Shown: positions 2,725-61,371 of the stretch, piece by piece
Layout of the letters: each line of letters begins with the position of its first letter
How positions within the stretch are numbered: the stretch's first letter is position 1
NCBI GenBank assembly: GCA_964383365.1
Contig: CAYLHF010000008.1
Coordinates: 42,036 to 106,035, forward strand
Reading direction: 5' to 3'
DNA: 64,000 nt
DNA from: an uncultured Rhodothermales bacterium
GTDB taxonomy: Bacteria; Bacteroidota; Rhodothermia; Rhodothermales; UBA10348
The notes under the pieces: model-generated
Database searches by the model: none
The model's input: only the letters and a program-made list of their open reading frames with translations
What the model was told of the DNA's origin: nothing
Made by a program: the position numbers and the translations under genes

Positions 2725-5424
2725 ATGACTCTGGGAGAATATCGCGTTCGATTTAAGCCGACCGTACTGGACTACGTAGTAACAGCGCTTGCCGTCGTTT
2801 CTATCGGTCTGTATGTCCTGTTCCTCCCGACGAATCACCCGGTCTCCGGTGCCAGATTTGCTTTGACGGAATCCGAGGTCATCGAGAAAGCCAACATTTT
2901 TCTGGCCACTCAGGGATATTCGACAGAAGACCTGATCGTCGATGCAGAATTGACCAGACAGGCGACGCTTCTTGCTGACCTTCAAAACGATCTCGGACGA
3001 AGGAACGCCTTTGAAATAATCCGGTCCGACGACGGCGACTTCCTTCCGGTCTACTACTGGAGGATTCGTTATGACATACTCGATCCGGATTCTTCAGACG
3101 ATGATCTTTTGCCGTCATCCTCCACGGTTTTCACGGTGCACATGAACCAGGACGGGGTCGTCTGGTCATTCCTGAATACCACATCACGCATCGGACCGTC
3201 GGCAGGTCTCCTGGGTTCAGCCCGGAATTCGGTCAATCGGATTGCCCTCGCGAACGCCATACGCCCTGCAGACTCTACGCTGCGACAGACCCTCGATGCC
3301 CTCAGAACGGTGCCTGACTCGCTCTTGCTGGCGAACCTGCGATTCGATCGTAGTTCGTCTGCCACCCCGAGTACTGAGGCGAACCAGACTGGTGACGATT
3401 CAGTGCGAGAAGGAGACAACTCGGTTTTTCTTCAGATGATTTTGGGACGCTACGTTCGCCTGAAAGAAGATGTACTCGAGTCCCTCGCCCAATATCATGC
3501 TCCTGACCTGCTCCCGGATAGTGCCCGGTGGAGGGTCGATTCGGTTCAGGTCCTTCCCGCACGAAACGACCAGCTTGCCAGAGTCAGATTAACCTCTACC
3601 TCAACCATTCATCTGCAAGAGGTGAGAGCAGACGTAACGGTATCCGCCGTGGGCAGCGTTCAGAGCCTGGCCGTCTCCTACAATCCTGATCGAGTGCGGT
3701 CGACCGATGTAGAACAGCTCATCGGAATAATTCTTGTGACGATCTACATCATTTTGGGGCTGGTTCTGGTCATTGTTTTCTTTCGCCGGGTCATGGCAAG
3801 ACTGGTGGATATCAAGAGTGCGCTTCTCGACGGGATCATCATCGGATCGCTCTTTGCCATGTTTATCGTTTTGTCCAGGCAGAATTTCGACTTTGGGCAT
3901 GCCCCGGTGTGGGTCTCCGTCGGACTGCGTCTCCTTGTTTTTTCAGGGGTTGCGGGTGCCATGACTCTCCTTACGTTTATGTTCTCAGCCGTCTCGGAAT
4001 CACTTTCTCGGGACGTGTGGCCCAAAAAGTCGCTCACTCTTTCGCTGCTCAGACGGGGTGAATTGAGAAACACCGTCGTGGGCAGCAGTCTTCTCAGAGG
4101 GGTGGCACTGGCGGCCATTCTTCTTGGTCTGTCGATGCTGTTCCTGATTCTATTCCAGGATGTCTCACTCCGAACGGAAGCCAACCTCTTGACAGGCAGT
4201 TCGAGAAGGCCGCTGGTGTACGCAGCCGCCGGAAGCGCCAGCAGGGTCTATCTGATCCTGTTAATCATTCTCCTCGGTCTGGGCACCTTCATTCGACGTC
4301 TGGGTGGACATTCATTACTCGTCGTCCTCGTCATCACGCTGTTTGGTGGTCTCCTCCAGTTGGCTCCAATAGGTGTCGAGCTCGGATGGTATTCGTTCGG
4401 ACTGTCCGCTGCAAGCGCACTGGTAATCAGTCTATTCTTCGTCAGATATGACTTTTTGACTGCGTATACGGGATTGGCTGTCGCCCAGTTCGTGTGGGCG
4501 TTATCCGAGGGCTTCCTGGTCTCCGGGTCTCCTGCCTGGATCGATTCCTATCTCGGGGGCGCGGGCGTGATGGGGGTCATCGGCATCGGCCTCGTAGGGA
4601 CTTTCAGTAAGAGAAGCGGTCGCGACCTGAGAGAATTCGTACCCGAATATATTGTCGAGATGACGGGTCAGGAACGAATAAAGCGCGAGCTTGAGATCGC
4701 CCATCAGGTCCAGGCTTCGTTTCTTCCCCGGACCATGCCAGATATAGTCGGTCTGGATCTGGCCGGAATGTGTCTCCCTGCGAATGAAGTAGGAGGAGAT
4801 TATTTTGATTTTATTGAATTATCAGACCGGCGCCTCGCGTTCGTTGTCGGAGATGTCAGCGGGAAAGGGACCCAGGCTGCATTCTACATGACCCTCGTGA
4901 AAGGCATGATTCAGACACTTTCCGGTCTCGATTATTCGCCAGATGAAGTGATGTGCCGACTGAACGGTCTTTTCCGGAAAAATGCTCCCGCAGGAACGTT
5001 CATCTCACTCATTTATGGCGTCGTTGACGTCCCGTCTGGAGTATTCACCTTCGCGAGAGCCGGACATAATCCGGCTATTCTGAAGCGGAAAGGGGAATCT
5101 TCAGCTTCGGCCCTTCAGCCGCGTGGAATGGCCATCGGATTTGCTGATGCCAACGTATTCGATCACAATATTGAACAACTATCGGTCTCTCTTAAAGCGG
5201 GTGACGTACTGGTTTTTTATACCGACGGCTTTTCCGAAGCCATGAATTCAGCCCGGGAATTGTACAGCGACGAACGGCTCGTTGACAAGCTGTCACACGT
5301 TGGAGACCGATCTGCCGGTGGCATCCTCAGATCTATGACCGAAGCGGTACATCATTTTATCGAAGGTGCCGGTCGAAGCGATGACATGACCATGGTCGTC
5401 TTGAAAATGGCGGCGGATGCATGA
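2725..5424 (+). CDS. Polytopic membrane protein with C-terminal PP2C/SpoIIE-type serine phosphatase domain
   Basis: About 10 hydrophobic helices in the middle of the protein. C-terminal motifs 'EVGGDYFDF', 'FVVGDVSGKG', 'ARAGHNPAIL', 'FYTDGFSEAMN' and 'DDMTMVVLKM' match RsbU/SpoIIE phosphatases. Confidence 0.85.
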   Translation: MTLGEYRVRFKPTVLDYVVTALAVVSIGLYVLFLPTNHPVSGARFALTESEVIEKANIFLATQGYSTEDLIVDAELTRQATLLADLQNDLGRRNAFEIIRSDDGDFLPVYYWRIRYDILDPDSSDDDLLPSSSTVFTVHMNQDGVVWSFLNTTSRIGPSAGLLGSARNSVNRIALANAIRPADSTLRQTLDALRTVPDSLLLANLRFDRSSSATPSTEANQTGDDSVREGDNSVFLQMILGRYVRLKEDVLESLAQYHAPDLLPDSARWRVDSVQVLPARNDQLARVRLTSTSTIHLQEVRADVTVSAVGSVQSLAVSYNPDRVRSTDVEQLIGIILVTIYIILGLVLVIVFFRRVMARLVDIKSALLDGIIIGSLFAMFIVLSRQNFDFGHAPVWVSVGLRLLVFSGVAGAMTLLTFMFSAVSESLSRDVWPKKSLTLSLLRRGELRNTVVGSSLLRGVALAAILLGLSMLFLILFQDVSLRTEANLLTGSSRRPLVYAAAGSASRVYLILLIILLGLGTFIRRLGGHSLLVVLVITLFGGLLQLAPIGVELGWYSFGLSAASALVISLFFVRYDFLTAYTGLAVAQFVWALSEGFLVSGSPAWIDSYLGGAGVMGVIGIGLVGTFSKRSGRDLREFVPEYIVEMTGQERIKRELEIAHQVQASFLPRTMPDIVGLDLAGMCLPANEVGGDYFDFIELSDRRLAFVVGDVSGKGTQAAFYMTLVKGMIQTLSGLDYSPDEVMCRLNGLFRKNAPAGTFISLIYGVVDVPSGVFTFARAGHNPAILKRKGESSASALQPRGMAIGFADANVFDHNIEQLSVSLKAGDVLVFYTDGFSEAMNSARELYSDERLVDKLSHVGDRSAGGILRSMTEAVHHFIEGAGRSDDMTMVVLKMAADA

Positions 5425-21001: not shown

Positions 21002-24000
21002 TCATAAGGTCCAGTACAATGCCGCCGAAAATGTAAACGTGTTATACCGATCGATGAATGACCCGGCCCCACTACCGAGCGTCCGGGTTGACTGGCTCAT
21101 CGCCGTCCGCGCAGTGAGCGAAAAATTGCCTCCTAGCCGCTTGATTAGATCGGCCTCTATGCGTCTATTTACAAATCCTGCACTCTGCGCGATGACACCG
21201 ATCGATCCCCTGACCCGGATGTACCACTTGGTTCGAAGCTCGCGTTCATACTCGAGAAACATGTCGTACGTCGTGTACGCTCGGGGCGAGAAATACGTAT
21301 CGACGGTCGTTCGATAGTTGATCGCGTAATATGTCACTCCGAGATACGTGTAATCCACGATGCGGTACCCACCTTCGAGCCGAAGCGACGTTCCGAAGTT
21401 CGTATCGCTGTTTGACGCTGTATTGCCAAAGTTATCGCTCACGATATTGAAGGCCAGCGCACCTTGTACCCGGAGTACCGAGTCGGCCATGATGGTCGCA
21501 CTGCTTCCTTTCAAATCAAACTGTGTCAGCCGCAAATTGAATTGCCCGCCTCCCGGTGACCAGAGTTCAATCGAACCTTCGCCGGTATGCACCCCTATCG
21601 AGGCCTGATATTTTCCAAGCTCCTGTTTCCAGTATCGAAGACCACCGTAACCGACGGTCCTGGCACCCTCATAGTCATACAATCCGATCTCCCCGGATAT
21701 CCGGTTGGAAAAACTCGCCCGATCCGACGGCACAGGTGGCGTCAGGTCGATGTATCCACCGGCAAATATCTGATTGACGCGGCCGCGAACGATTTCTGAT
21801 CCAGGAACCAGACGGCGCGAACCACTGATGAAATGCGAGTTGACACCGGCCGTCAATACGACATCGATCGGTATCGTCACCTGTGTCTGCATTCCCTGGG
21901 CCCAGCGATCATACCGGGTGCCCCCGCCACGACTCCGAACGGCGTCGGTTGTCGGCACAACGATACCGGCAAAATCATAGCCGAGCCATTCGCCACTCTC
22001 GAGAAGAGTGGTCCTGACATCGGCACCGATCGCCACTTTGGTGTCTTCGATCATCTTCGAGTCTTCGGCCAGCATCTGGGCTTCGTTGTAGATGTCCTCC
22101 GCCTCGGCATAGAGGCCCAGGGCACGAAGTGCGTCCGCCTGCATGAATCGAACTTCGTAATCTCGCGGGTTTCTCACCTGAAGCTGTTCGAGCGCAGACA
22201 GTGCTCCTGAGTAATCTTTCCTCAGAATGCGGGTTCGTGCCATTTCTTTACCTACATCGTAGGCGAACTGCTGCTGCTGAAGCGCCTCAAGAATAGCCAA
22301 CGCATCGTCATATTTCGCCGCTGCCGTATAGACCTGGGCCAGTTCTTTGAGTTCGGCACGCGTGCGGCGTCCTCTCAATTCGAAATATCGGTCGTATGAA
22401 GCAATGGCATTGTCATACCGTTTCGCTGCCGTATAGCGCCGGGCCTCGTTGAGCACCGCTACCTGCGCCTCCTCATTGAGACGGATCTTTTCTCTGGCGA
22501 TCAAATGCCGGAGTGTCTGTATTTTTTCTATAAACCGTGGATCTCCTACTCTCTCGGCCATATCCACAAGGCGGCTCGCATCCTCGACGGCTGTTTGAAG
22601 CAATCGGTAATCGGCCGCGTCGAGAATGAGTTCACTATCCTCTGCGTACGGTCCGGCGAGAAGCGATGCGAGGTAATTTTCGCCCCGGTCATCGAGTTCT
22701 CTGTTCGACAATTCGGAGAGAACGAAGAGCCGTTGAAACTCCGTGTTGTCTGGATTCTGATCTACCAGGTACCTCGCCTGTTCGACGGCCTGTTTCCGGT
22801 ATCCATTCAGCCTGAGCGTATCCACATAGCGGGCCCGGAGCGGAAAATTTTCGGGCTGGAGGCCGATAAGCTGTACATACGCACGAATGGCATCGTCTAT
22901 TCGATCAACGATCTGGTATTGATCGATAATCTCGAGGAGTTCGTCTGTCGCGCTCGAATCCGAAGCAATTATGGGTTCGAGTTCTCGAATTCTGCGACGC
23001 GCATAATCGAGTCGCGCTGCCTTGATGGCTACCAGTCTTCCCCGATATCCTTCCTCGGCTGGATTGGTATGCGCAGGATCAACGAGTACATCGAGAGCTT
23101 CAGAGAATCGCTTGGCGTTGACGAGTTCATCGACGAGCTGATAGCGCGTCATGATGTCGTCGGGCTGGAATCGGAGTCGATACGTCAGACGGTCTATCGG
23201 AAAGAGCGGCGACTTCCCGCCGGTCGAGACGAATCCATTGTCGGTCTGGATAAAGAGTGAGAGCCACCGATCCGTCGTGCCGTAGTCTTTTTCCAGTTTC
23301 AGCAGTTGATCGTAGGCTTCTCCGTAGCGCTTGTACTTGTTCAGTTGCTCAACGAGTTTGAAGCGGGTTTCGGCGTTTCCGGGATCCCGTTCAAGAGCCC
23401 GGTAGAGTCGGTCAACGATGAATGTCGACGGCCTGTTTGGAGAGGGCTCTGTCTGCAGCCTGTTTTCGACCAGGAGCGATCGTTTCGTCCATTCAGGAGA
23501 TCCCTGATACCGTGGTTTCAGGTACGTCAGATTCTGCTGGGCTTCAAAATATCTTCCGTCATCGATCAGTAAATCGATCAACTGGAATCGTTTCCCATCC
23601 TGATTGGGGTCTGCCCGGAGTTCCCGGGTAAGTACGTCGATCGGATACTGAGATTGTGTTCCTGCGAGTCCGGGTTGGTCTCCATAATCAGAACACTTTT
23701 CCGCCTCTGTGTTATTCGGATTCAGTCGGAGTGCCTGTTCGCAGGCTTCCTTGGCCAGACGATATTTCCCCTGCCAGAGACGGAAATAGCCGAGTCGCAT
23801 GTACAGATCATCGTTGTTCGTGTAGATCTTTACATATTTCTGAGCGGTTCTCTCGCCCAGCGCGTTGTCTCCCTCGTAATTGGCGATCGCTATCAGATAG
23901 GACTGTACAACGTCCGGGGTTCCCTGTGTCTTTCGGAGATACTCTCCATACTGATCGGCAGCCTGTCTGAACAGTCGTGCCTCAAACAGGGCATCTGCAT

Positions 24001-24415
24001 ACCGAATTCGATACGATAAATTGGTCGGGTTAGCGGCGACGAGCCGCCTCATACTCTCCAGGTTGCCCCGGTTTCGTGCGACGGTCTGCTGCTGAGATCG
24101 GCGGAGTCCATTCCGAGCCTCCACGTGGGCGGGATTCAATTCCAGAATTCGCTCATAGTCCTTTGCTGCAGAAGCGAAATCGCGCCGACCCTCATGCGCG
24201 GCGGCCCGTATCAATAGCGGACGAGGGTCCTTCGATTCGGGTGTAATCAAGGTGTTCAGCAGGGCAATTGCCTCCTGAAAACGTCCTTGCGTTACCAGAC
24301 GTTCTGCACGGTCCTGTGCGGCGATATCCTGTGAAAAGGCTTCTCCCACCGGGACGAGAACCCAGATGGAGACCAGGACTACCAGCACTGTCAATCGGCG
24401 GATCATAGCGATCAC
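21002..24415 (-). CDS. Large TPR-repeat protein with C-terminal beta-barrel (PgaA/BcsC-like EPS export porin)
   Basis: Signal peptide 'LTVLVVLVSIWVLVPVGEAFSQD'. About 750 aa of TPR-like helical repeats. The last ~350 aa show an alternating beta-strand pattern ('GTSLRLEGGYRIVDYTYLGVTYYAINYR...FTFSAALYWTL'). Confidence 0.7.
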   Translation of the reverse strand: MIAMIRRLTVLVVLVSIWVLVPVGEAFSQDIAAQDRAERLVTQGRFQEAIALLNTLITPESKDPRPLLIRAAAHEGRRDFASAAKDYERILELNPAHVEARNGLRRSQQQTVARNRGNLESMRRLVAANPTNLSYRIRYADALFEARLFRQAADQYGEYLRKTQGTPDVVQSYLIAIANYEGDNALGERTAQKYVKIYTNNDDLYMRLGYFRLWQGKYRLAKEACEQALRLNPNNTEAEKCSDYGDQPGLAGTQSQYPIDVLTRELRADPNQDGKRFQLIDLLIDDGRYFEAQQNLTYLKPRYQGSPEWTKRSLLVENRLQTEPSPNRPSTFIVDRLYRALERDPGNAETRFKLVEQLNKYKRYGEAYDQLLKLEKDYGTTDRWLSLFIQTDNGFVSTGGKSPLFPIDRLTYRLRFQPDDIMTRYQLVDELVNAKRFSEALDVLVDPAHTNPAEEGYRGRLVAIKAARLDYARRRIRELEPIIASDSSATDELLEIIDQYQIVDRIDDAIRAYVQLIGLQPENFPLRARYVDTLRLNGYRKQAVEQARYLVDQNPDNTEFQRLFVLSELSNRELDDRGENYLASLLAGPYAEDSELILDAADYRLLQTAVEDASRLVDMAERVGDPRFIEKIQTLRHLIAREKIRLNEEAQVAVLNEARRYTAAKRYDNAIASYDRYFELRGRRTRAELKELAQVYTAAAKYDDALAILEALQQQQFAYDVGKEMARTRILRKDYSGALSALEQLQVRNPRDYEVRFMQADALRALGLYAEAEDIYNEAQMLAEDSKMIEDTKVAIGADVRTTLLESGEWLGYDFAGIVVPTTDAVRSRGGGTRYDRWAQGMQTQVTIPIDVVLTAGVNSHFISGSRRLVPGSEIVRGRVNQIFAGGYIDLTPPVPSDRASFSNRISGEIGLYDYEGARTVGYGGLRYWKQELGKYQASIGVHTGEGSIELWSPGGGQFNLRLTQFDLKGSSATIMADSVLRVQGALAFNIVSDNFGNTASNSDTNFGTSLRLEGGYRIVDYTYLGVTYYAINYRTTVDTYFSPRAYTTYDMFLEYERELRTKWYIRVRGSIGVIAQSAGFVNRRIEADLIKRLGGNFSLTARTAMSQSTRTLGSGAGSFIDRYNTFTFSAALYWTL

Positions 24416-56292: not shown

Positions 56293-56323
56293 GAAGGGCG
56301 GTACCCCTCTACACCCGCCCTTC
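56293..56323 (+). terminator. Terminator-like hairpin
   Basis: 9-bp stem 'GAAGGGCGG'/'CCGCCCTTC' starting 9 nt after the stop at 56284. No long T-tract. Confidence 0.45.
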
Positions 56324-56388: not shown

Positions 56389-56469
56389 AAATGGCAGTCA
56401 CTGGCGATGGTTTTCGCTTTACAAGACCCACTCTGGACGGTATACTGATCCGCGGAACGTGCCGACAGA

Positions 56470-57264
56470 ATGGGGAGAATCAGGCTGAATCGACCGGAAG
56501 AAATATCTGTACTGACGCGGTTGCTCGATACACCGGTTGATCGACATGGATCATGGGTTACGTTCCTTCAGCAGTACTCACGACTGTTGATTAAAATCAT
56601 CAGGCAGTTCGAGAAGGACCATGACGCGATCATGGAGAAGTATGTGTTCGTCTGCTCGCGTTTGGTCGATGATGATTTTTCGCTACTGCGCAAATTCAAG
56701 CCCGGACCGGCTCGCTTTACCACCTGGCTCGTCGTAGTGGTCCGAAATCTGTGCATTGAGGAGCATCGAAATACGGTTGGAAGATTTCGGTACCCGGCGT
56801 TACTTAAAGGGGCTTCAGAAATGGAACGTAAGGTGTACGCCCTCCGCTTCTGGAAAGGTTATTCCAACCATGAAATCGTTGAAATGCTGACAGCAGACGG
56901 AGTGGCATCGCTCGCGTCGGTACAGGCCGCTCTCGACCGCCTCGAAACCATGGACCTCCGACCGTCCAAGACGTGGGAGAGGCATCGTCTGCAGCATGTA
57001 CATCTAAAGGACGAGTTTTATTCGACAGATCGGGATGAAACGCTGGTAGCATTCGAGAATCTGGATGAAATTGAACACCTGATCTCCAGTCTGTCCGACG
57101 AAGAACGAACCGTCGTGCGATTACGGTACTGGGGAGAGCTCACGGCGCGGGACATATCGACCGTGACCGCTCTTCCGCAGCGTCGTGTCTACTCGGTTCT
57201 GACGTCGGCAATTAATCAACTGAAAAACCGGCACCGGATAGAAGCGCGTAAAACGGCCTCGTGA
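56470..57264 (+). CDS. Sigma-70 family (ECF-like) sigma factor with two tandem region-4-like HTH segments
   Basis: Region 2: 'FTTWLVVVVRNLCIEEHR'. First sigma-4-like segment: 'SEMERKVYALRFWKGYSNHEIVEMLT...SVQAALDRL'. Second: 'LSDEERTVVRLRYWGELTARDISTVTALPQRRVYSVLTSAINQLK'. Confidence 0.7.
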   Translation: MGRIRLNRPEEISVLTRLLDTPVDRHGSWVTFLQQYSRLLIKIIRQFEKDHDAIMEKYVFVCSRLVDDDFSLLRKFKPGPARFTTWLVVVVRNLCIEEHRNTVGRFRYPALLKGASEMERKVYALRFWKGYSNHEIVEMLTADGVASLASVQAALDRLETMDLRPSKTWERHRLQHVHLKDEFYSTDRDETLVAFENLDEIEHLISSLSDEERTVVRLRYWGELTARDISTVTALPQRRVYSVLTSAINQLKNRHRIEARKTAS

Positions 57265-57285
57265 TGACCATGTCCTATCCATAAG

Positions 57286-58053
57286 ATGCAGTCCCTCTCT
57301 TCATATCACCATCCTGTTGATCCTCAGACGTCCGAGTCTGACTCAATCAGATCTTGCCCAGGCGAATCCCGCCCGGCCGGGCGTCACCTCTCTGAGACAG
57401 ACATCGCCCGCTATGTTGACAATACGGTCGACTCACTGGATCGAACCGTGATTCACGCGCACCTGGCAGGCTGTTCAGTGTGTGCCCGAACTATCGGTGA
57501 TGTGATCCGGTCGACCCGCGATCTCAGGATGATTACAGAGAACAGGGCACCCTCCGAAGGTCGAACGGAGATGGTTTCCCCGGATTCGGAGATACGAAAG
57601 AAAGTCGAGTCCCTGGTTTTGAAACCCGAACACGCTTTCGACCGGACGACCAGACGGCGACGAATGATCCGGGCGTTGAGAATCGGTATTCCGGTAGCTG
57701 CTGTAGCATTCTTCTGGATTTTTCGACTTACGGGCTCCGATCCTGTCTCCCGCTTCAGATCCTCCGACACCCCTCGTTCGATTCATCTCACCCTGCCACG
57801 CGACGGCTCCATACTGGGAGATAAAGACTGGCGATTCGAAGTCGAAGAAATCGAAGATGCCCTGGCCTACCGATTCACAATTTCGACCCTGTCGGGTGAT
57901 CTCACGTACCGCGACGAACGTGCCGCTCCGGCCGTGACCGTCCCGGACTCAATCCCCCGTACACCGGGTCGGTATGCATGGACGGTCGACGTAGTGCTAA
58001 AGGACGGTCGCGTGCTGAAATCCGACATGGGCACATTTGTTGCCAATCGATGA
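57286..58053 (+). CDS. Membrane anti-sigma factor (zf-HC2 type)
   Basis: 'IHAHLAGCSVCARTIGD' (H-x3-C-x2-C), TM helix 'IGIPVAAVAFFWIF', and a ~100-aa extracytoplasmic domain. Starts 21 nt after the sigma gene. Confidence 0.7.
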   Translation: MQSLSSYHHPVDPQTSESDSIRSCPGESRPAGRHLSETDIARYVDNTVDSLDRTVIHAHLAGCSVCARTIGDVIRSTRDLRMITENRAPSEGRTEMVSPDSEIRKKVESLVLKPEHAFDRTTRRRRMIRALRIGIPVAAVAFFWIFRLTGSDPVSRFRSSDTPRSIHLTLPRDGSILGDKDWRFEVEEIEDALAYRFTISTLSGDLTYRDERAAPAVTVPDSIPRTPGRYAWTVDVVLKDGRVLKSDMGTFVANR

Positions 58054-60713
58054 CCAGGTACATTCCGGTCTTCCTCCTGCTCATACTCGGATCCTGTCGT
58101 TCAGAGGCTCCGCACAGACCATTGTTGTCAGATGCCGAACGGCTGTTTGACACCGGTCGAATGGCAGAGGCACTCACCGTTCTCGACGCGCTGGATCTGT
58201 CCGTTCCCGTAGCCCTGTTGAGAGCGCATACGCTCTTTTTTACCGCTCCTGCTGATTCTGCGTACCGCGCAGCGGACCGAATCGCTGCGCGTCTGGAACG
58301 TGCCATTTCCGACGGCGATTCGACCTCCCTCACGCTCGTTCATCTGGGAAGAGCGCTGCACATCAAGGGGCTCGCCCGATTCAATACGGGCAACCTCCGG
58401 CTCGCTGATCAACTACAACAACAGAGTCTCGGACTGGCGCGGAAGGCAGGTGACGAGCGGCTGCAGGCCGACGCTCTCCGCCAACTGGGAGTCCTCGAAT
58501 GGTATCGCGGACGAGTCGATTCGGCCGAAAAAAACTTTTACAATCCGGCTCTGGAACTGTATCGACGCCTCGGTGATCGGGCTGGAGAAGCCACAACCCT
58601 GAGTGACATCGGCCTCCTTGCGTGGCAGAAGAAGGATTGGACGACGCATACAGATTATCAGATGCGCGCCCTGGCTATCCGAAAGGAAATCGACGATTGG
58701 GTTGGTCTGGCCGACTCGTACAATTTTCTGTCTTCCATCCCGAGAACGCTGGGTGCTGCGAATCTTCCGTTTGAACTGGAATACCTGAAACGAAGTCTCG
58801 ATCTGAGTGCTCGTGCAGGCTACGCATGGGGTGAGAATCTGGCTCGACAGGCGCTCAGAACTCTCCTGACACGCCATTTCACAAATTGGGGAGTCTCTGA
58901 TGATACGACTCTCACAATTGTTCGAGACGGCAACAAGGAATTTGAGATCATCAATTTGATGATACGCGCATCGGCCGATCTGGCTGCAAAGAATTGGACC
59001 GGCGCTCGAAAAGTCCTTGACCGGGTCATCCGTATGGCGGACGAGGGGGACTTCCTGAACTTTCGCGTTCACTCCCGATTGCTGCTTTCTGAATACTACG
59101 CCCGATCCGGGCGTGTGACGGACGCCGAACTCGTGCTCGATCAGATGTCCGGTCTGCTATCCGCCTACGCCGTGCCAAACGTCTCGGTCGCCGTTAGAGC
59201 GCGCATCGCAGAACTGAGGTTTCGGAGAACCGGTGACAGGACGTCCCGCCGGCTGTTGGACTCGCTGACAATCGCCTCTGACCGAATCTATTTGAGCTTC
59301 ATGAACGGTTCTTCAGGTGGCATCGCACTCGCGGACGAGATGGTCGAAGCGTACCGGCTCCGCCGGATGATCTACGGGTCCACCATCTCGGCAGTTGAGT
59401 CCGACGAAGCCATTAACCCATCGGATCGAGATCGGGAGATCCTGCTGCTGATGGACCGGGAACGCCTGCTTCCTCTGTGGGCGACGTCGGCCGGATGGGA
59501 CGACGACAATCCGCTCGCTATTCGCATCCGAAAACTGGTTGAAACTGCCGATTATTCGAATCGGCGTATGGACCGGCTTCTCGTCACTATCGGTGAAATG
59601 CAGCAGACGCTCTCAGAACGCGAGCATTCTATTACATCAGCCATGCAGCGGCTCGGCTATCCCCGGGCATTGCCTACGGATTCGCTCGCCCGCCTATTGG
59701 AACCAGCGGAGGCATATGTTTCTTATCGACTGGTCCGAAACAGGCTCTATATCGGTGTCATACGCCGCGATACGACGGTTGTCCTCTCGAAGTCTGTGTC
59801 CAGAAGCAAACTGATCTGGCTCACCGGACTCCTCCACGCAGCATTCCTTCGTGCAAAAAAGAAGCCGTTCGACCCAAGCTGGAGAACTCCAGCCAACACC
59901 CTGTTTCAGGAATTGTGGGAACCGCTCCGAGAGGCGAATCTGATTCACACCGGGGATCATGTGATCGTCGCGCCCGATTACCAACTTTATGGAATCCCGA
60001 TTCATGCACTTTCATCGGGGACGGCCACGGGTTCGGCGCTCGTGATCGATTCTGTTGACGTGTCGTATGCGACCTCATTGACGAGGCTCATGGCCGTGCG
60101 GTCTGACCATCGCAACGGGTCAGACAGAATTGAGGTGTTTGCCCCGCAGTCGAAACAGCTTCCCTTCACGGCCAAGGAGACGGCCTCCATCGCTGCGCTA
60201 GGGGGAGACAGAGTACGGGCCTATGTGGACGGTGAGGCCACCGGCCATCGAGTCATGGATGGCTTCCGGAATGCGTCGATCGTTCATCTGGCCGCACATG
60301 GCCATATAAACACGAGCTTTCCGTTATTTTCCCGATTTGAACTCGCTGATGGATCGGTTTATCTCCGGGATCTTGTGGGCGCGTCGGTCGACGCAAACCT
60401 GATCGTGCTGAGCGCCTGTGAATCAGGTGTGGGATTGAACTGGAGTGGGGACGAATCGACGAGTGAGGGACTGATCAGCTTTCCGAGAGTATTTCTGGAA
60501 GCCGGGGCAGAGGGAGTCATCTCGTCGCTCTGGCCGGTCGAGGATGCTGCCACGGCGAGACTCATGGAGGCCTTCTACGAGACCGGATCGCTTAGCCGAG
60601 CGATGAGACGCTACCGGGACCGGGCCCTCGAGCGGGGAGAGTCAATTCATCCTCTTTTCTGGGCCGGGTTTAAGCTCACGGGCGTCCTACGCCCATCGGT
60701 CGTTACCGAATAA
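58050..60713 (+). CDS. Lipoprotein with TPR repeats and C-terminal CHAT (caspase-like) protease domain
   Basis: Start 'MTRYIPVFLLLILGSCRSE' (lipobox) overlaps the anti-sigma stop as ATGA. TPR_12-like repeats ('ATTLSDIGLLAWQKKDW...'). CHAT His/Cys dyad contexts 'IVHLAAHGHIN' and 'LIVLSACESGVG'. Confidence 0.8.
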   Translation: MTRYIPVFLLLILGSCRSEAPHRPLLSDAERLFDTGRMAEALTVLDALDLSVPVALLRAHTLFFTAPADSAYRAADRIAARLERAISDGDSTSLTLVHLGRALHIKGLARFNTGNLRLADQLQQQSLGLARKAGDERLQADALRQLGVLEWYRGRVDSAEKNFYNPALELYRRLGDRAGEATTLSDIGLLAWQKKDWTTHTDYQMRALAIRKEIDDWVGLADSYNFLSSIPRTLGAANLPFELEYLKRSLDLSARAGYAWGENLARQALRTLLTRHFTNWGVSDDTTLTIVRDGNKEFEIINLMIRASADLAAKNWTGARKVLDRVIRMADEGDFLNFRVHSRLLLSEYYARSGRVTDAELVLDQMSGLLSAYAVPNVSVAVRARIAELRFRRTGDRTSRRLLDSLTIASDRIYLSFMNGSSGGIALADEMVEAYRLRRMIYGSTISAVESDEAINPSDRDREILLLMDRERLLPLWATSAGWDDDNPLAIRIRKLVETADYSNRRMDRLLVTIGEMQQTLSEREHSITSAMQRLGYPRALPTDSLARLLEPAEAYVSYRLVRNRLYIGVIRRDTTVVLSKSVSRSKLIWLTGLLHAAFLRAKKKPFDPSWRTPANTLFQELWEPLREANLIHTGDHVIVAPDYQLYGIPIHALSSGTATGSALVIDSVDVSYATSLTRLMAVRSDHRNGSDRIEVFAPQSKQLPFTAKETASIAALGGDRVRAYVDGEATGHRVMDGFRNASIVHLAAHGHINTSFPLFSRFELADGSVYLRDLVGASVDANLIVLSACESGVGLNWSGDESTSEGLISFPRVFLEAGAEGVISSLWPVEDAATARLMEAFYETGSLSRAMRRYRDRALERGESIHPLFWAGFKLTGVLRPSVVTE

Positions 60714-60879: not shown

Positions 60880-61371
60880 TTACCACACCTTACAGCCGAC
60901 CGGTGGGGAGTTTTTTCCAACGTCCATCCCTGCGTTCTTCCAGGTCCCGCTTATTTTTCGGGCCCGTTGGACCTTTATGCAATCGGAATAGCGTCCGTAC
61001 ATGAACACGCGCACTCGCAGGTTCGTATTTGATTTCGGCTTTACCTCAAAGTAGGGCCGCTTGCTGTTTTTGCTCTTGAGTTGTCTCGTATACAGGTCGG
61101 AATCGGCTTTCGTACCGTTTCCATTGGTTTCATTGTACCCCAGTTGACCCAACTTCAGTCCCTTCAGATATTTCGCGTCGTTCCCGCCGCCGAAAGCTGC
61201 GGCTTTTCCCTTCCAGCTGATGGCGTCCGAGGCCATTCTCAAGCCTTCCGCCGTTATGTTTTCGTAGAGTGCCTTTTCCTGATTCTCGCCGAACATAAGC
61301 GTTCCGGCTGCGACAGCCACGGTGACCAGGAGAATTCCGACACCGAGTATGAGAAGTTGCTGCTGACCCAT
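60880..61371 (-). CDS. Hypothetical Lys-rich protein with N-terminal hydrophobic helix
   Basis: 'MGQQQLLILGVGILLVTVAVAAGTLMF' anchor or signal. Lower GC and more basic than its neighbours. C-terminal 'GTWKNAGMDVGKNSPPVGCKVW'. Confidence 0.45.
   Translation of the reverse strand: MGQQQLLILGVGILLVTVAVAAGTLMFGENQEKALYENITAEGLRMASDAISWKGKAAAFGGGNDAKYLKGLKLGQLGYNETNGNGTKADSDLYTRQLKSKNSKRPYFEVKPKSNTNLRVRVFMYGRYSDCIKVQRARKISGTWKNAGMDVGKNSPPVGCKVW

What the first reader, a model, noticed from the sequence alone, without database searches (positions are those of the whole stretch)
56470..60713. Operon of sigma factor, zf-HC2 anti-sigma factor and lipoprotein TPR-CHAT protease: a possible caspase-like switch for an ECF-type sigma without any CRISPR context
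- **Layout.** Three co-directional genes with a 21-nt gap and then an ATGA start/stop overlap (58050..58053), which suggests translational coupling.
- **The protease.** The third product has a lipoprotein signal ('LLILGSCRSE'), TPR repeats, and a CHAT domain with His and Cys dyad contexts ('HLAAHGH', 'LSACESG').
- **The anti-sigma factor.** It has a single TM helix and a ~100-aa extracytoplasmic domain, so protease and substrate domain would share a compartment.
- **Established background.** ECF sigma factors are released by regulated proteolysis of their anti-sigma (the DegS/RseP paradigm). In type III-E CRISPR systems, a TPR-CHAT protease (Csx29) cleaves Csx30, a partner of an RpoE-family sigma factor.
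- **What stands out.** The same three-part logic (TPR-CHAT, sigma, sigma inhibitor) appears here as a stand-alone envelope module with no gRAMP/Cas genes in the window.
- **Hypothesis.** The CHAT protease is the site-1 protease, or a signal-gated protease, for this anti-sigma factor.
Basis: partly seen in the sequence, partly recalled or inferred. Interest (0 to 1): 0.8.

Follow-up and report, generated by a model that had tools for sequence, protein, structure and literature searches.

The report
Sigma, anti-sigma and exported caspase-like protease
This is a real three-gene switch, conserved in several bacterial phyla, in which an exported caspase-like protease is paired with a membrane-spanning inhibitor of a transcription (sigma) factor; it is a two-protein version of the one characterised fused example (DdvA), which would make the still unproven idea that the protease cleaves the inhibitor easy to test.

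Summary
Three co-directional genes encode:
- a sigma-70-family/ECF-like sigma (56470-57264);
- a zinc-motif, single-pass anti-sigma (57286-58053);
- a TPR-CHAT protein with a signal peptide and lipobox (58050-60713), joined to the anti-sigma gene by an ATGA overlap.

**Conservation.** Starting from the sigma, 54 of 60 loci with enough downstream sequence keep sigma, anti-sigma and CHAT in that order (Rhodothermota, Bacteroidota, Ignavibacteriota, mostly Gemmatimonadota). Starting from CHAT, 6 of 6 orthologues have the pair upstream, and 2 distant TPR-CHAT proteins do not.

**Physical link.** Three Gemmatimonadota MAGs (metagenome-assembled genomes) fuse the anti-sigma and TPR-CHAT into one reading frame. 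This places CHAT in the periplasm and ties it to the anti-sigma ectodomain.

**Active site and candidate cleavage site.**
- H750 aligns with the Csx29 catalytic His, and C790 is invariant.
- A near-invariant Arg (R158) lies in a predicted disordered linker between the membrane helix and an FN3-like ectodomain.

**Closest known.** The closest system is Myxococcus DdvS/DdvA, a fused anti-sigma-TPR-CHAT protein for which the same self-cleavage idea is still untested.

**Limits.**
- Cleavage, the triggering signal and the regulon are not shown.
- 11 of 46 orthologues lack the catalytic His.
- No CRISPR array was found, and none of the ten ORFs scanned encodes a Cas or defence protein.

**Verdict.** New variant of a known kind, moderately to highly interesting.

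The parts
56418..56446 (+). Sigma-70-like promoter candidate TTTACA-17 nt-TATACT, 23 nt upstream of the sigma start codon
   Evidence: Consensus scan, 10 of 12 matches. This is a pattern match only. An inverted repeat (56293-56301 / 56315-56323) separates it from the upstream gene.
56470..57264 (+). Sigma-70-family (ECF-like) sigma factor, 264 aa, with sigma2 and sigma4 and a linker of about 95-100 aa between them
   Evidence: Pfam r2 and r4 hits and TIGR02937 at 67 bits against a 42.9 cut-off. There are 190 relatives in GTDB species genomes. The linker aligns collinearly with WhiG/FliA but without convincing residue matches.
57286..58053 (+). Class I zinc-type anti-sigma factor, 255 aa: N-terminal anti-sigma domain, one membrane helix, juxtamembrane linker and FN3-like ectodomain
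   Evidence: zf-HC2. Profile hits to RslA (E 5e-5), RsiW and the DdvA N-terminal domain. AlphaFold2 model. Orthologue alignments.
57460..57483 (+). H59-x3-C63-x2-C66 zinc motif (HLAGCSVC); H34 is also near-invariant
   Evidence: Translation. H59, C63 and C66 are invariant in A2 and A4.
57664..57729 (+). Membrane helix of the anti-sigma factor (residues 127-148), preceded by the basic stretch RTTRRRRMIR, which indicates N-in/C-out topology
   Evidence: AlphaFold2 helix at 127-148.
57748..57762 (+). Juxtamembrane motif SRFRS with near-invariant R158, in a predicted disordered linker; candidate cleavage or recognition site
   Evidence: Translation. pLDDT below 50 for residues 150-160. The Arg is conserved across clades (xRFRS in the Bacteroidota-related clade; LREP or xRD/xRG in Gemmatimonadota).
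57787..58044 (+). FN3/Ig-like beta-sandwich ectodomain (residues 168-253)
   Evidence: pLDDT above 90. Foldseek matches to FN3-like modules and CopC, E 6e-5 to 1e-3. Weak hit to an FN3 consensus protein.
58050..58053 (+). ATGA overlap of the anti-sigma stop codon and the CHAT start codon (translational coupling)
   Evidence: The same 4-nt overlap occurs in 34 of 58 loci and a 1-nt overlap in 6 of 58.
58050..60713 (+). Exported TPR-CHAT caspase-like cysteine protease, 887 aa
   Evidence: CHAT at 155.9 bits. AlphaFold2 pLDDT 82.5, pTM 0.78. Best structural matches are Csx29, separase and DdvA.
58050..58097 (+). Signal peptide with lipobox (MTRYIPVFLLLILGS-C16)
   Evidence: Sequence. A hydrophobic N-terminus is present in 53 of 58 orthologues and a lipobox pattern in at least 31. 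In the natural fusions this signal is replaced by a Pro/Ala-rich linker.
58116..59654 (+). TPR superhelix (about residues 23-535); presumed sensor or substrate-binding scaffold
   Evidence: TPR_12 and TPR_MalT hits. All-helical repeats in the model.
59886..60683 (+). CHAT protease domain (residues 613-878) with catalytic H750 (60297-60299) and C790 (60417-60419)
   Evidence: Pfam. H750 aligns with H585 of the Csx29 chain 7x8a_D in the CHG motif; that this is the catalytic His rests on my recollection of the literature. C790 aligns with the Cys of the Csx29 ACE motif. Translations. Cys is present in 46 of 46 orthologues and His in 35 of 46.

Best explanation
The three genes form one envelope-to-transcription signalling module.

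**Resting state**
- The anti-sigma factor holds the sigma factor at the inner membrane through its cytoplasmic zinc-type anti-sigma domain.
- Its FN3-like ectodomain, tethered by a short disordered linker, sits in the periplasm.
- The co-translated TPR-CHAT lipoprotein sits there with it.

**Activation (inferred)**
- An unknown periplasmic cue, probably sensed by the TPR scaffold, activates the His750/Cys790 dyad.
- The protease cuts the anti-sigma factor in the juxtamembrane linker, at or near R158.
- This site-1 cut removes the ectodomain.
- The remaining stub is cleared by the cell's intramembrane site-2 protease (RseP-type) and by cytoplasmic proteases.
- The sigma factor is then released.

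**Shown here**
- gene order, translational coupling and domain content;
- export signals on CHAT;
- conservation of the module;
- natural fusions of anti-sigma and TPR-CHAT;
- an intact dyad homologous to that of Csx29;
- a conserved Arg in a disordered linker.

**Inferred**
- binding of CHAT to the ectodomain;
- cleavage and its position;
- involvement of a site-2 protease;
- the signal and the regulon.

**My estimates**
- About 0.8 that CHAT acts directly with or on the anti-sigma ectodomain.
- About 0.45-0.5 that it does so as the site-1 protease.
For: **Synteny**
- From the sigma side, 54 of 60 loci with at least 3.5 kb downstream have sigma, anti-sigma and CHAT in that order and direction, across four or five phyla.
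- From the CHAT side, 6 of 6 orthologues at 25-34% identity have the pair upstream.
- Two distant TPR-CHAT proteins do not have it.

**Coupling**
- 40 of 58 loci have a 4-nt or 1-nt overlap between the anti-sigma stop and the CHAT start.

**Fusions**
- In L073, L078 and L085 one reading frame encodes the zinc anti-sigma domain, membrane helix, FN3-like domain, a Pro/Ala-rich linker and TPR-CHAT.
- The CHAT signal peptide is absent at the junction.

**Compartment**
- 53 of 58 CHAT orthologues have a hydrophobic signal, and many have a lipobox.
- The anti-sigma topology is N-in/C-out.

**Catalysis**
- The dyad aligns with the Csx29 active-site motifs.
- Cys is present in 46 of 46 orthologues and His in 35 of 46, including all Bacteroidota-related clade members.
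- The model matches Csx29 (E 4.6e-16), separase and DdvA (E 1.2e-12).

**Candidate site**
- A near-invariant Arg lies in a linker with pLDDT below 50, between the membrane helix and the fold.
- Many clan CD proteases (separase, metacaspases, gingipain R) cut after Arg. This is established knowledge, not tested here.

**Precedent**
- Csx29 cleaves Csx30 to free CASP-sigma (PMC10028731).
- DdvA without its TPR-CHAT domain becomes an RseP substrate (PMC11506125).
Against: - There is no direct evidence of binding or cleavage, and I could not run a co-fold.
- 11 of 46 orthologues have Tyr, Phe or Ser at the catalytic His position. This is the roughly 1075-aa Gemmatimonadota subgroup, and it includes the fused forms L073 and L078. 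At least there, canonical proteolysis is doubtful.
- Csx29 is not Arg-specific. Its cut lies at residues 427-429 of Csx30 and no single residue is essential (PMC10028731). The Arg argument is therefore weak for CHAT proteases specifically.
- For DdvA, dyad mutants and phage infection gave no evidence of autoproteolysis so far (PMC11506125).
- Six or seven sigma loci lack an adjacent CHAT gene.
- I found no shared ECF-type promoter and no regulon.
Confidence: 0.5

Rival explanations
1. **Sensor or shield model.** TPR-CHAT is a co-anti-sigma or ligand sensor that binds the FN3-like ectodomain. It sterically protects the anti-sigma factor from another site-1 protease or from RseP, as RseB does for RseA and as the bulky DdvA periplasmic domain does. 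A signal makes it dissociate or destroy itself. Its dyad is not used on the anti-sigma factor.
For: - The catalytic His is lost in 11 of 46 orthologues, including the natural fusions, while the module is kept.
- The DdvA TPR-CHAT domain blocks RseP, its active site is incomplete and no autoproteolysis was seen (PMC11506125).
- Fusions and translational coupling fit stable complex formation equally well.
Against: - Cys790 is invariant in 46 of 46 orthologues. His750 is kept in all Bacteroidota-related clade members and in most Gemmatimonadota. That argues for catalysis in most lineages.
- The conserved Arg in a disordered linker is more easily explained as a processing site.
Confidence: 0.25
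2. **Output model.** The CHAT protease is simply a target or effector of the sigma factor. It is co-transcribed in an autoregulated operon and acts on other periplasmic or surface proteins (quality control, cargo processing, defence or cell death), not on the anti-sigma factor.
For: - ECF operons often include the function they regulate (general knowledge).
- Neighbouring genes in Bacteroidota-related loci encode type IX secretion cargo.
- Gemmatimonadota loci carry a fourth Big_2 lipoprotein gene. Either could be a substrate.
Against: - In-frame fusions of the anti-sigma ectodomain to TPR-CHAT and 4-nt coupling specifically between these two genes indicate a physical partnership rather than mere co-expression.
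- The association is specific to this CHAT clade.
Confidence: 0.13
3. **Securin-like model.** Control runs in the opposite direction. The anti-sigma ectodomain or linker occupies the CHAT active site as a pseudosubstrate inhibitor. Destruction of the anti-sigma factor by another pathway then releases both the sigma factor and an active periplasmic protease.
For: - Separase, a structural relative, is held inactive by securin bound as a pseudosubstrate (cited in PMC11506125).
- The stoichiometric coupling and the fusions fit this model.
Against: - No independent site-1 protease or trigger is evident in the module.
- No known anti-sigma factor works this way.
- The model is purely analogical.
Confidence: 0.08
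4. **Chance adjacency or mis-annotation.** The three ORFs are unrelated neighbours.
For: None beyond the lack of experimental data.
Against: - 54 of 60 and 6 of 6 synteny across phyla.
- Conserved overlaps between the anti-sigma and CHAT genes.
- Natural fusions.
Confidence: 0.01

Closest known systems
[quoted passage not shown]
   Same: - Zinc-type N-terminal anti-sigma domain, single membrane helix and flexible juxtamembrane linker.
- A periplasmic separase/craspase-type TPR-CHAT domain with a His-Cys dyad.
- The same proposed logic: CHAT acts as site-1 protease, then RseP.
- The window's CHAT model matches 8rot_A (Foldseek E 1.2e-12) and its sequence matches 8rot_B (E 1.5e-3). The anti-sigma N-terminus weakly matches 8rlz (E 0.07).
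- Fused relatives of the window's module exist.
   Different: - Here the anti-sigma factor and TPR-CHAT are two polypeptides, and CHAT has its own lipoprotein signal.
- An FN3-like ectodomain sits on the anti-sigma factor. No such domain appears in the parts of the DdvA paper I read.
- The sigma factor is longer (264 aa). No chain named DdvS appeared among the PDB hits of the sigma profile, even at E up to 10.
- Similarity to the DdvA CHAT domain is only remote.
- No CBASS or CRISPR island lies nearby.
- The taxa differ: Rhodothermota, Bacteroidota, Ignavibacteriota and Gemmatimonadota, against Myxococcota plus one Comamonas as reported for DdvA-like proteins.
Type III-E CRISPR Craspase: Cas7-11/gRAMP-Csx29 (TPR-CHAT) cleaving Csx30 to free CASP-sigma (PMC10028731)
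   Same: - A TPR-CHAT protease, a sigma inhibitor and an ECF-like sigma factor are encoded together.
- Csx29 chains are the best structural matches (E 4.6e-16).
- The dyad residues align.
   Different: - There is no Cas7-11, crRNA or CRISPR array.
- The protein scores 31 bits against the Csx29 NCBIfam model, whose cut-off is 300.
- Csx29 is cytoplasmic and RNA-gated, whereas this protease is exported.
- Csx30 is soluble and unrelated to the zinc-type membrane anti-sigma factor here.
Regulated intramembrane proteolysis of anti-sigma factors (RseA-DegS-RseP in E. coli; RsiW-PrsW-RasP in B. subtilis)
   Same: - Single-pass anti-sigma factor with a cytoplasmic sigma-binding domain and an extracytoplasmic domain that must be removed first.
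- The anti-sigma profile hits RsiW and RslA.
   Different: - The proposed site-1 protease is a clan CD caspase-like cysteine protease encoded in the operon. It is not a DegS-type serine protease or a PrsW-type metalloprotease encoded elsewhere.
- Involvement of a site-2 protease is assumed, not tested.
Other protease-gated sigma modules in defence loci: CalpL-CalpT-CalpS, and SAVED-CHAT/PCaspase/PCc-sigma (bioRxiv 10.1101/2023.06.23.546230)
   Same: A dedicated protease encoded next to a sigma factor and its inhibitor. A CHAT or caspase-fold protease is used in the second system.
   Different: Those systems are cytoplasmic, triggered by cyclic oligonucleotides and linked to CRISPR or CBASS. 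None of that applies here.
Separase-securin (eukaryotes)
   Same: TPR-like scaffold plus a CHAT/caspase-fold protease. There are structural matches, and separase is Arg-specific at P1.
   Different: Eukaryotic, cytoplasmic or nuclear, and with unrelated substrates. This is an analogy only.

Membership tests
CHAT domain proteases (Pfam PF12770, clan CD) | Match to the CHAT profile above the gathering score | tested here: met
   155.9 bits against a cut-off of 24, residues 613-878.
CHAT domain proteases (Pfam PF12770, clan CD) | Catalytic His (HG) and Cys dyad | tested here: met
   H750 aligns with H585 of the Csx29 chain 7x8a_D and C790 with its active-site Cys motif. Codons verified. Cys is present in 46 of 46 orthologues and His in 35 of 46.
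CHAT domain proteases (Pfam PF12770, clan CD) | Proteolytic activity | not testable with these tools
   Needs an enzyme assay.
Separase/craspase-type TPR-CHAT architecture | N-terminal TPR superhelix followed by a C-terminal CHAT fold | tested here: met
   AlphaFold2 model, pTM 0.78. Foldseek top hits are Csx29, separase and DdvA.
ECF (group 4) sigma factors | Sigma2 and sigma4 domains present, and a match to the ECF superfamily model | tested here: met
   Pfam r2 and r4. TIGR02937 at 67 bits against a 42.9 cut-off.
ECF (group 4) sigma factors | Only two domains joined by a short linker (no sigma3) | tested here: inconclusive
   The linker is about 95-100 aa (264 aa in total). There is no Pfam r3 hit. 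The alignment to WhiG/FliA is collinear, but the middle part has no convincing matches. Gemmatimonadota relatives are shorter, about 220 aa.
ECF (group 4) sigma factors | Cognate anti-sigma factor encoded directly downstream | tested here: met
   21-nt gap in the window. An anti-sigma gene follows the sigma gene in 57 of the 60 loci with enough downstream sequence.
Class I zinc-binding anti-sigma factors (ZAS/zf-HC2) | H-x3-C-x2-C motif in an N-terminal helical anti-sigma domain | tested here: met
   HLAGCSVC. zf-HC2 at 23.7 bits against a 22.2 cut-off. Invariant H59, C63 and C66. Helices at residues 37-86. RslA hit at E 5e-5. Zinc binding itself was not tested.
DdvS/DdvA-type system | Anti-sigma domain, membrane helix and periplasmic TPR-CHAT in one polypeptide | tested here: not met
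   Two genes in the window. The feature is met in the relatives L073, L078 and L085.
DdvS/DdvA-type system | Periplasmic location of TPR-CHAT | tested here: met
   Signal peptide and lipobox by pattern. The topology follows from the fusions. No dedicated signal-peptide predictor was run.
DdvS/DdvA-type system | Controls an adjacent CBASS/CRISPR-Cas defence island | tested here: not met
   No arrays, no PADLOC defence hits, and the scanned neighbours with a Pfam match are housekeeping.
DdvS/DdvA-type system | Close sequence relationship to DdvA and DdvS | tested here: not met
   DdvA CHAT at E 1.5e-3 only. DdvA N-terminal domain at E 0.07. No chain named DdvS among the PDB hits of the sigma profile at E up to 10.
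Type III-E Craspase (Csx29) | Match to the Csx29 model at its cut-off, and association with Cas7-11/gRAMP | tested here: not met
   31 bits against a cut-off of 300. No CRISPR array was found, and none of the ten ORFs I scanned with Pfam (which include all four ORFs of 899 aa or more outside this operon) is Cas7-11.
Regulated intramembrane proteolysis cascade (site-1 then site-2 protease) | Sequential cleavage of the anti-sigma factor, ending with an RseP-type protease | not testable with these tools
   Needs immunoblots in protease mutants. I did not look for an RseP homologue in the 64-kb window.
Bacterial lipoproteins | Signal peptide ending in a lipobox with an invariant Cys | tested here: met
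   MTRYIPVFLLLILGS-C16 fits [LVI]-x-[GAS]-C. Lipidation itself was not tested.

The most novel reading that the evidence does not exclude
A widespread free-standing periplasmic caspase-like pathway. In Rhodothermota, Bacteroidota, Ignavibacteriota and Gemmatimonadota, an exported TPR-CHAT protease acts in trans as a dedicated, signal-gated site-1 protease. It would cut its partner anti-sigma factor at a conserved juxtamembrane Arg to switch on a sigma factor. DdvA would then be a rare fused derivative of this older two-protein design, and Craspase its cytoplasmic, RNA-gated counterpart. If so, caspase-fold proteases would count as a general class of bacterial transmembrane signal transducers, independent of phage-defence islands.
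Probability: 0.4. Interest if true: 0.75.

Novelty: new variant of a known kind. Interest (0 to 1): 0.6.

Why it matters
- **A tractable test of an open hypothesis.** Whether a TPR-CHAT domain can serve as the site-1 protease of an anti-sigma factor is an open hypothesis for DdvA. It has been hard to test because protease and substrate are one large membrane protein and the signal is unknown. Here they are separate proteins: a soluble lipoprotein and an ectodomain of about 105 aa with a single conserved Arg in its linker. Trans-cleavage, mutant and co-folding tests are therefore straightforward.
- **Wider distribution.** The comparative data extend TPR-CHAT-linked sigma control from a few Myxococcota to hundreds of genomes in at least four other phyla, outside any CRISPR or CBASS context. 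This points to a general envelope-signalling role for bacterial caspase-like proteases.
- **Possible applications.** If the module works as a compact protease-substrate-sigma unit, it could serve as an orthogonal synthetic switch.

Tried and rejected
- **Shared promoter.** I looked for a shared ECF-type promoter by counting spaced dyads in the regions upstream of the sigma gene in 82 loci, split into two clades. No motif stood out, so no regulon could be predicted.
- **Sigma3 homology of the long linker.** The profile-to-PDB alignment with WhiG/FliA is collinear, but the middle part has no real matches. I dropped the claim that this is a three-domain sigma factor.
- **ECF classification paper (PMC7826278).** The main text does not mention CHAT, and its supplements are not held. 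I cannot say whether an ECF group with a CHAT neighbour is already catalogued.
- **Literature searches.** Seven searches combining CHAT or TPR-CHAT with anti-sigma, ECF, zf-HC2, operon or periplasmic found only DdvA and CRISPR-linked systems.
- **Defence context.** PADLOC, the tandem-repeat scan and Pfam on neighbours gave nothing.
- **Co-folding.** Co-folding CHAT with the ectodomain, or modelling a natural fusion, was not possible.
- **Fused forms in the large databases.** The word-indexed homologue search with the anti-sigma profile returned no fused forms, and none appeared in the top 150 of the exhaustive search. Fusions are rare and are known here only from three MAG loci.
- **Source contig.** An exact-sequence look-up for the window's CHAT protein found no record. 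Cluster look-ups gave no names. The taxon is inferred only from the nearest relatives (Rhodothermales, Salinivenus).
- **Family size.** The counts are inflated by giant proteins carrying tandem copies of the same FN3-like domain. I did not use them as a census.

Full report

Yes. The window carries three co-directional ORFs:
- 56470-57264 (264 aa);
- 57286-58053 (255 aa);
- 57978/58050-60713 (911 aa from 57978, 887 aa from 58050).

The first two are separated by 21 nt. The second stop codon and the ATG at 58050 overlap as ATGA.

Domain content is as follows:
- Pfam finds Sigma70_r2 and Sigma70_r4 in the first protein.
- Pfam finds zf-HC2 in the second, just above its cut-off.
- Pfam finds a strong CHAT domain (2e-45) plus TPR repeats in the third.
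- NCBIfam places the first protein in the sigma70-ECF superfamily (67 bits against 42.9).
- NCBIfam gives the third protein only a sub-threshold Csx29 match (31 bits against 300).

A sigma-70-like promoter candidate (TTTACA-17-TATACT) lies 23 nt upstream of the first gene. An inverted repeat separates it from the preceding beta-lactamase-family gene.

The surroundings look ordinary:
- RpoN and RuvB were recognised from the ORF translations.
- DUF3109, a serine hydrolase, a molybdopterin oxidoreductase, LeuRS and GcvP were identified by Pfam.
- There is no CRISPR-like array and no PADLOC defence hit.

**2. Is the arrangement more than chance?**

I built a sigma alignment from the window and four loci found through CHAT orthologues. 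I then scanned one genome per GTDB species with it.
- 190 relatives were found and 80 loci kept.
- They come from Rhodothermales/Salinivenus, other Bacteroidota, Ignavibacteria/Melioribacteraceae and mostly Gemmatimonadota, with one Myxococcota MAG (metagenome-assembled genome).

I scanned the ORFs of these loci with HMMs built from the three proteins.
- Of 60 loci with at least 3.5 kb downstream of the sigma gene, 54 have sigma, anti-sigma and TPR-CHAT in the same order and direction.
- Three more have the anti-sigma gene only, and three have neither. The exceptions are listed.

From the CHAT side:
- All six full-length orthologues I looked up (25-34% identity) have the sigma and anti-sigma genes upstream.
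- Two more distant TPR-CHAT proteins do not.

The association is therefore specific to this CHAT clade and strongly conserved.

**3. Anatomy of the anti-sigma factor**

Orthologue alignments show a near-invariant H34 and an invariant H59-x3-C63-x2-C66 motif. The profile hits the zinc-type anti-sigma factors RslA and RsiW and, weakly, the DdvA N-terminal domain.

The AlphaFold2 model built with 30 homologues gives these features:
- anti-sigma-domain helices at residues 37-86 and 99-111;
- a membrane helix at 127-148, preceded by a very basic stretch, which indicates N-in/C-out topology;
- a disordered segment at 150-160;
- a confident beta-sandwich at 168-253.

The beta-sandwich matches FN3-like modules and CopC in the PDB.

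Within the disordered juxtamembrane segment lies the only strongly conserved residue outside the folded parts. It is an Arg: R158 in SRFRS here, xRFRS in the Bacteroidota-related clade, and LREP or xRD/xRG in Gemmatimonadota.

**4. Anatomy of the CHAT protein**

The favoured start at 58050 gives MTRYIPVFLLLILGS-C16, a signal peptide with a lipobox. Across the orthologues:
- 53 of 58 have a hydrophobic N-terminus;
- at least 31 have a lipobox pattern;
- 34 overlap the anti-sigma stop codon by 4 nt, and 6 by 1 nt.

The AlphaFold2 model (pLDDT 82.5, pTM 0.78) is a long TPR superhelix followed by a CHAT fold. Its best PDB matches are Csx29 in Craspase complexes (E 4.6e-16), then separase, then DdvA (8rot_A, 1.2e-12).

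In a sequence alignment with the Csx29 chain 7x8a_D, H750 (HLAAHG) falls on H585 of the CHG motif. That this is the catalytic His of that Csx29 is my recollection of the literature. C790 (LSACES) falls on the Cys of its ACE motif. DdvA is also hit, at E 1.5e-3.

In 46 orthologues the Cys is invariant and so is a second His, H746. The catalytic His is present in 35. The other 11 have Tyr, Phe or Ser at that position and form the roughly 1075-aa Gemmatimonadota subgroup.

**5. Natural fusions**

In three Gemmatimonadota MAG loci a single reading frame encodes, in order, the anti-sigma domain, the membrane helix, the conserved-Arg linker, the FN3-like domain, a Pro/Ala-rich spacer and TPR-CHAT.
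- The loci are L073, L078 and L085. L078 is an intact frame of 1354 codons. L073 appears frameshifted within the CHAT region. L085 is cut by the contig end.
- The signal peptide of the stand-alone CHAT proteins is missing at the junction.

This matters in two ways:
- It proves that TPR-CHAT belongs on the periplasmic side, next to the ectodomain.
- It is classic gene-fusion evidence for a direct functional partnership.

It also reproduces the architecture of DdvA. The fusions are rare. None appeared in the two large protein searches with the anti-sigma profile.

**6. Mechanism**

The best-supported reading is that the three proteins form one signalling module. The TPR-CHAT lipoprotein works on, or with, the anti-sigma ectodomain in the periplasm.

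On this view it cuts the disordered linker near R158, after which an RseP-type protease and cytoplasmic proteases free the sigma factor. The support consists of:
- the conserved dyad;
- the conserved Arg in an accessible linker;
- the translational coupling and the fusions;
- two precedents: Csx29 cleaving Csx30 to free CASP-sigma (PMC10028731), and DdvA, whose truncated form lacking TPR-CHAT becomes an RseP substrate (PMC11506125).

Three things count against certainty:
- No cleavage has been shown, either here or for DdvA.
- Csx29 has no Arg specificity.
- A whole subgroup, including the fusions, lacks the catalytic His.

The main rival is a sensor or shield role, in which TPR-CHAT protects the anti-sigma factor and leaves on signal. 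Less likely are a pure output role for the protease and a securin-like reverse control. The signal and the regulon remain unknown.

**7. Comparison with known systems**

The module works like DdvS/DdvA and like the Craspase-Csx30-CASP-sigma axis, but it is a member of neither.
- It fails the defining DdvA feature of a single polypeptide.
- It lacks DdvA's defence-island context.
- It is only remotely similar to DdvA in sequence.
- It lacks Cas7-11 and scores far below the Csx29 model cut-off.

It is a member of the CHAT family, of the zinc-type class I anti-sigma factors and of the sigma70/ECF superfamily. The caveat for the last is a sigma2-sigma4 linker of about 95-100 aa, whose relation to sigma3 I could not establish.

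The DdvA authors reported DdvA-like anti-sigma factors only in Myxococcota and one Comamonas. The split module, and the Gemmatimonadota fusions found here, widen that picture considerably.

I found no paper describing the split operon in the held library. I could not inspect the supplementary neighbourhood tables of the ECF classification.

**8. Verdict**

The finding is real and non-random. It is also less novel than claimed, because DdvA exists.

I rate it a new variant of a known kind, with interest 0.6. Its main value is that it offers a widespread, CRISPR-independent, two-protein version of a mechanism that is currently only hypothesised. That version is well suited to direct biochemical testing.

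Noticed in passing
L005 9230-13210, and about 40 other Gemmatimonadota loci (e.g. L022 5392-6633, L065 11546-13666, L083 11254-13551): The Gemmatimonadota versions of the module carry a fourth co-directional gene directly after CHAT. It encodes a lipoprotein with Big_2 Ig-like repeats (plus RCC1/WD40 in L005). It is absent from the window's clade. In two CHAT-less exceptions (L030, L056) it follows the anti-sigma gene directly. It could be a target, a co-sensor or a substrate.
   Followed up: partly
CHAT orthologues in L005, L027, L043, L050, L065, L067, L068, L073, L078, L082 and L083 (position equivalent to window 60297-60299): 11 of 46 orthologues have Tyr, Phe or Ser at the catalytic His position (HLATYG). 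They keep the upstream His (H746) and the catalytic Cys. This subgroup includes the natural anti-sigma::CHAT fusions. They may be pseudo-proteases or use a different general base.
   Followed up: partly
Proteins P0201-P0212 and others: The FN3-like ectodomain of the anti-sigma factor belongs to a repeat family that also occurs in giant proteins of 1200-4489 aa, with up to 33 tandem copies. The ectodomain is therefore a borrowed, common extracellular module.
   Followed up: no
L001 11434-12324; L002 1604-4366 and 8928-11402; L004 1-1060 and 2073-4400; L086 7116-7640; L087 6516-7064 and 7061-8355: In loci of the Bacteroidota-related clade, genes for type IX secretion cargo (Por_Secre_tail) flank the module. 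In L086 and L087 a pair of genes (about 670-685 aa, then about 175-182 aa with Por_Secre_tail) follows CHAT. These are possible regulon members. Nothing equivalent lies next to the window's operon.
   Followed up: no
Locus pairs L054+L075, L046+L078, L060+L085 and L034+L069: Several Gemmatimonadota MAGs hold two paralogous copies of the module on different contigs, sometimes one split and one fused. This suggests diversification for different signals.
   Followed up: no
window 57286-57381: The window's anti-sigma factor has a disordered N-terminal extension of about 32 aa before the conserved 'HL.E' start seen in most orthologues (which begin MHL...). P0124, which is 58% identical and of almost the same length (257 aa), probably shares it; I did not inspect the alignment.
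   Followed up: partly
window 60880-61371 (- strand), promoter-like site at 61399-61370: A convergent 163-aa ORF lies just downstream of CHAT. It has a hydrophobic N-terminus (MGQQQLLILGVGILLVTVAVAAG), no Pfam match, and its own TTGACA-18-AACAAT site. Its function is unknown.
   Followed up: no
window 56293-56301 / 56315-56323: A 9-bp GC-rich inverted repeat (GAAGGGCGG ... CCGCCCTTC) lies right after the beta-lactamase-family gene, with no T-run. It probably marks the end of the upstream transcription unit.
   Followed up: no
window 2725-5424 (+) and 21002-24415 (-): Elsewhere in the window there is an 899-aa protein with a C-terminal SpoIIE/PP2C phosphatase domain and an 1137-aa all-TPR protein. 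Neither is connected to the operon by any evidence here.
   Followed up: no
L016 3111-3755, then 3955-4815: In one Ignavibacteria MAG the sigma and anti-sigma pair, with the same ectodomain and conserved Arg, is followed by what looks by eye like a PurU-type gene (not scanned) rather than CHAT. The protease can therefore be encoded elsewhere or be dispensable in some lineages.
   Followed up: no
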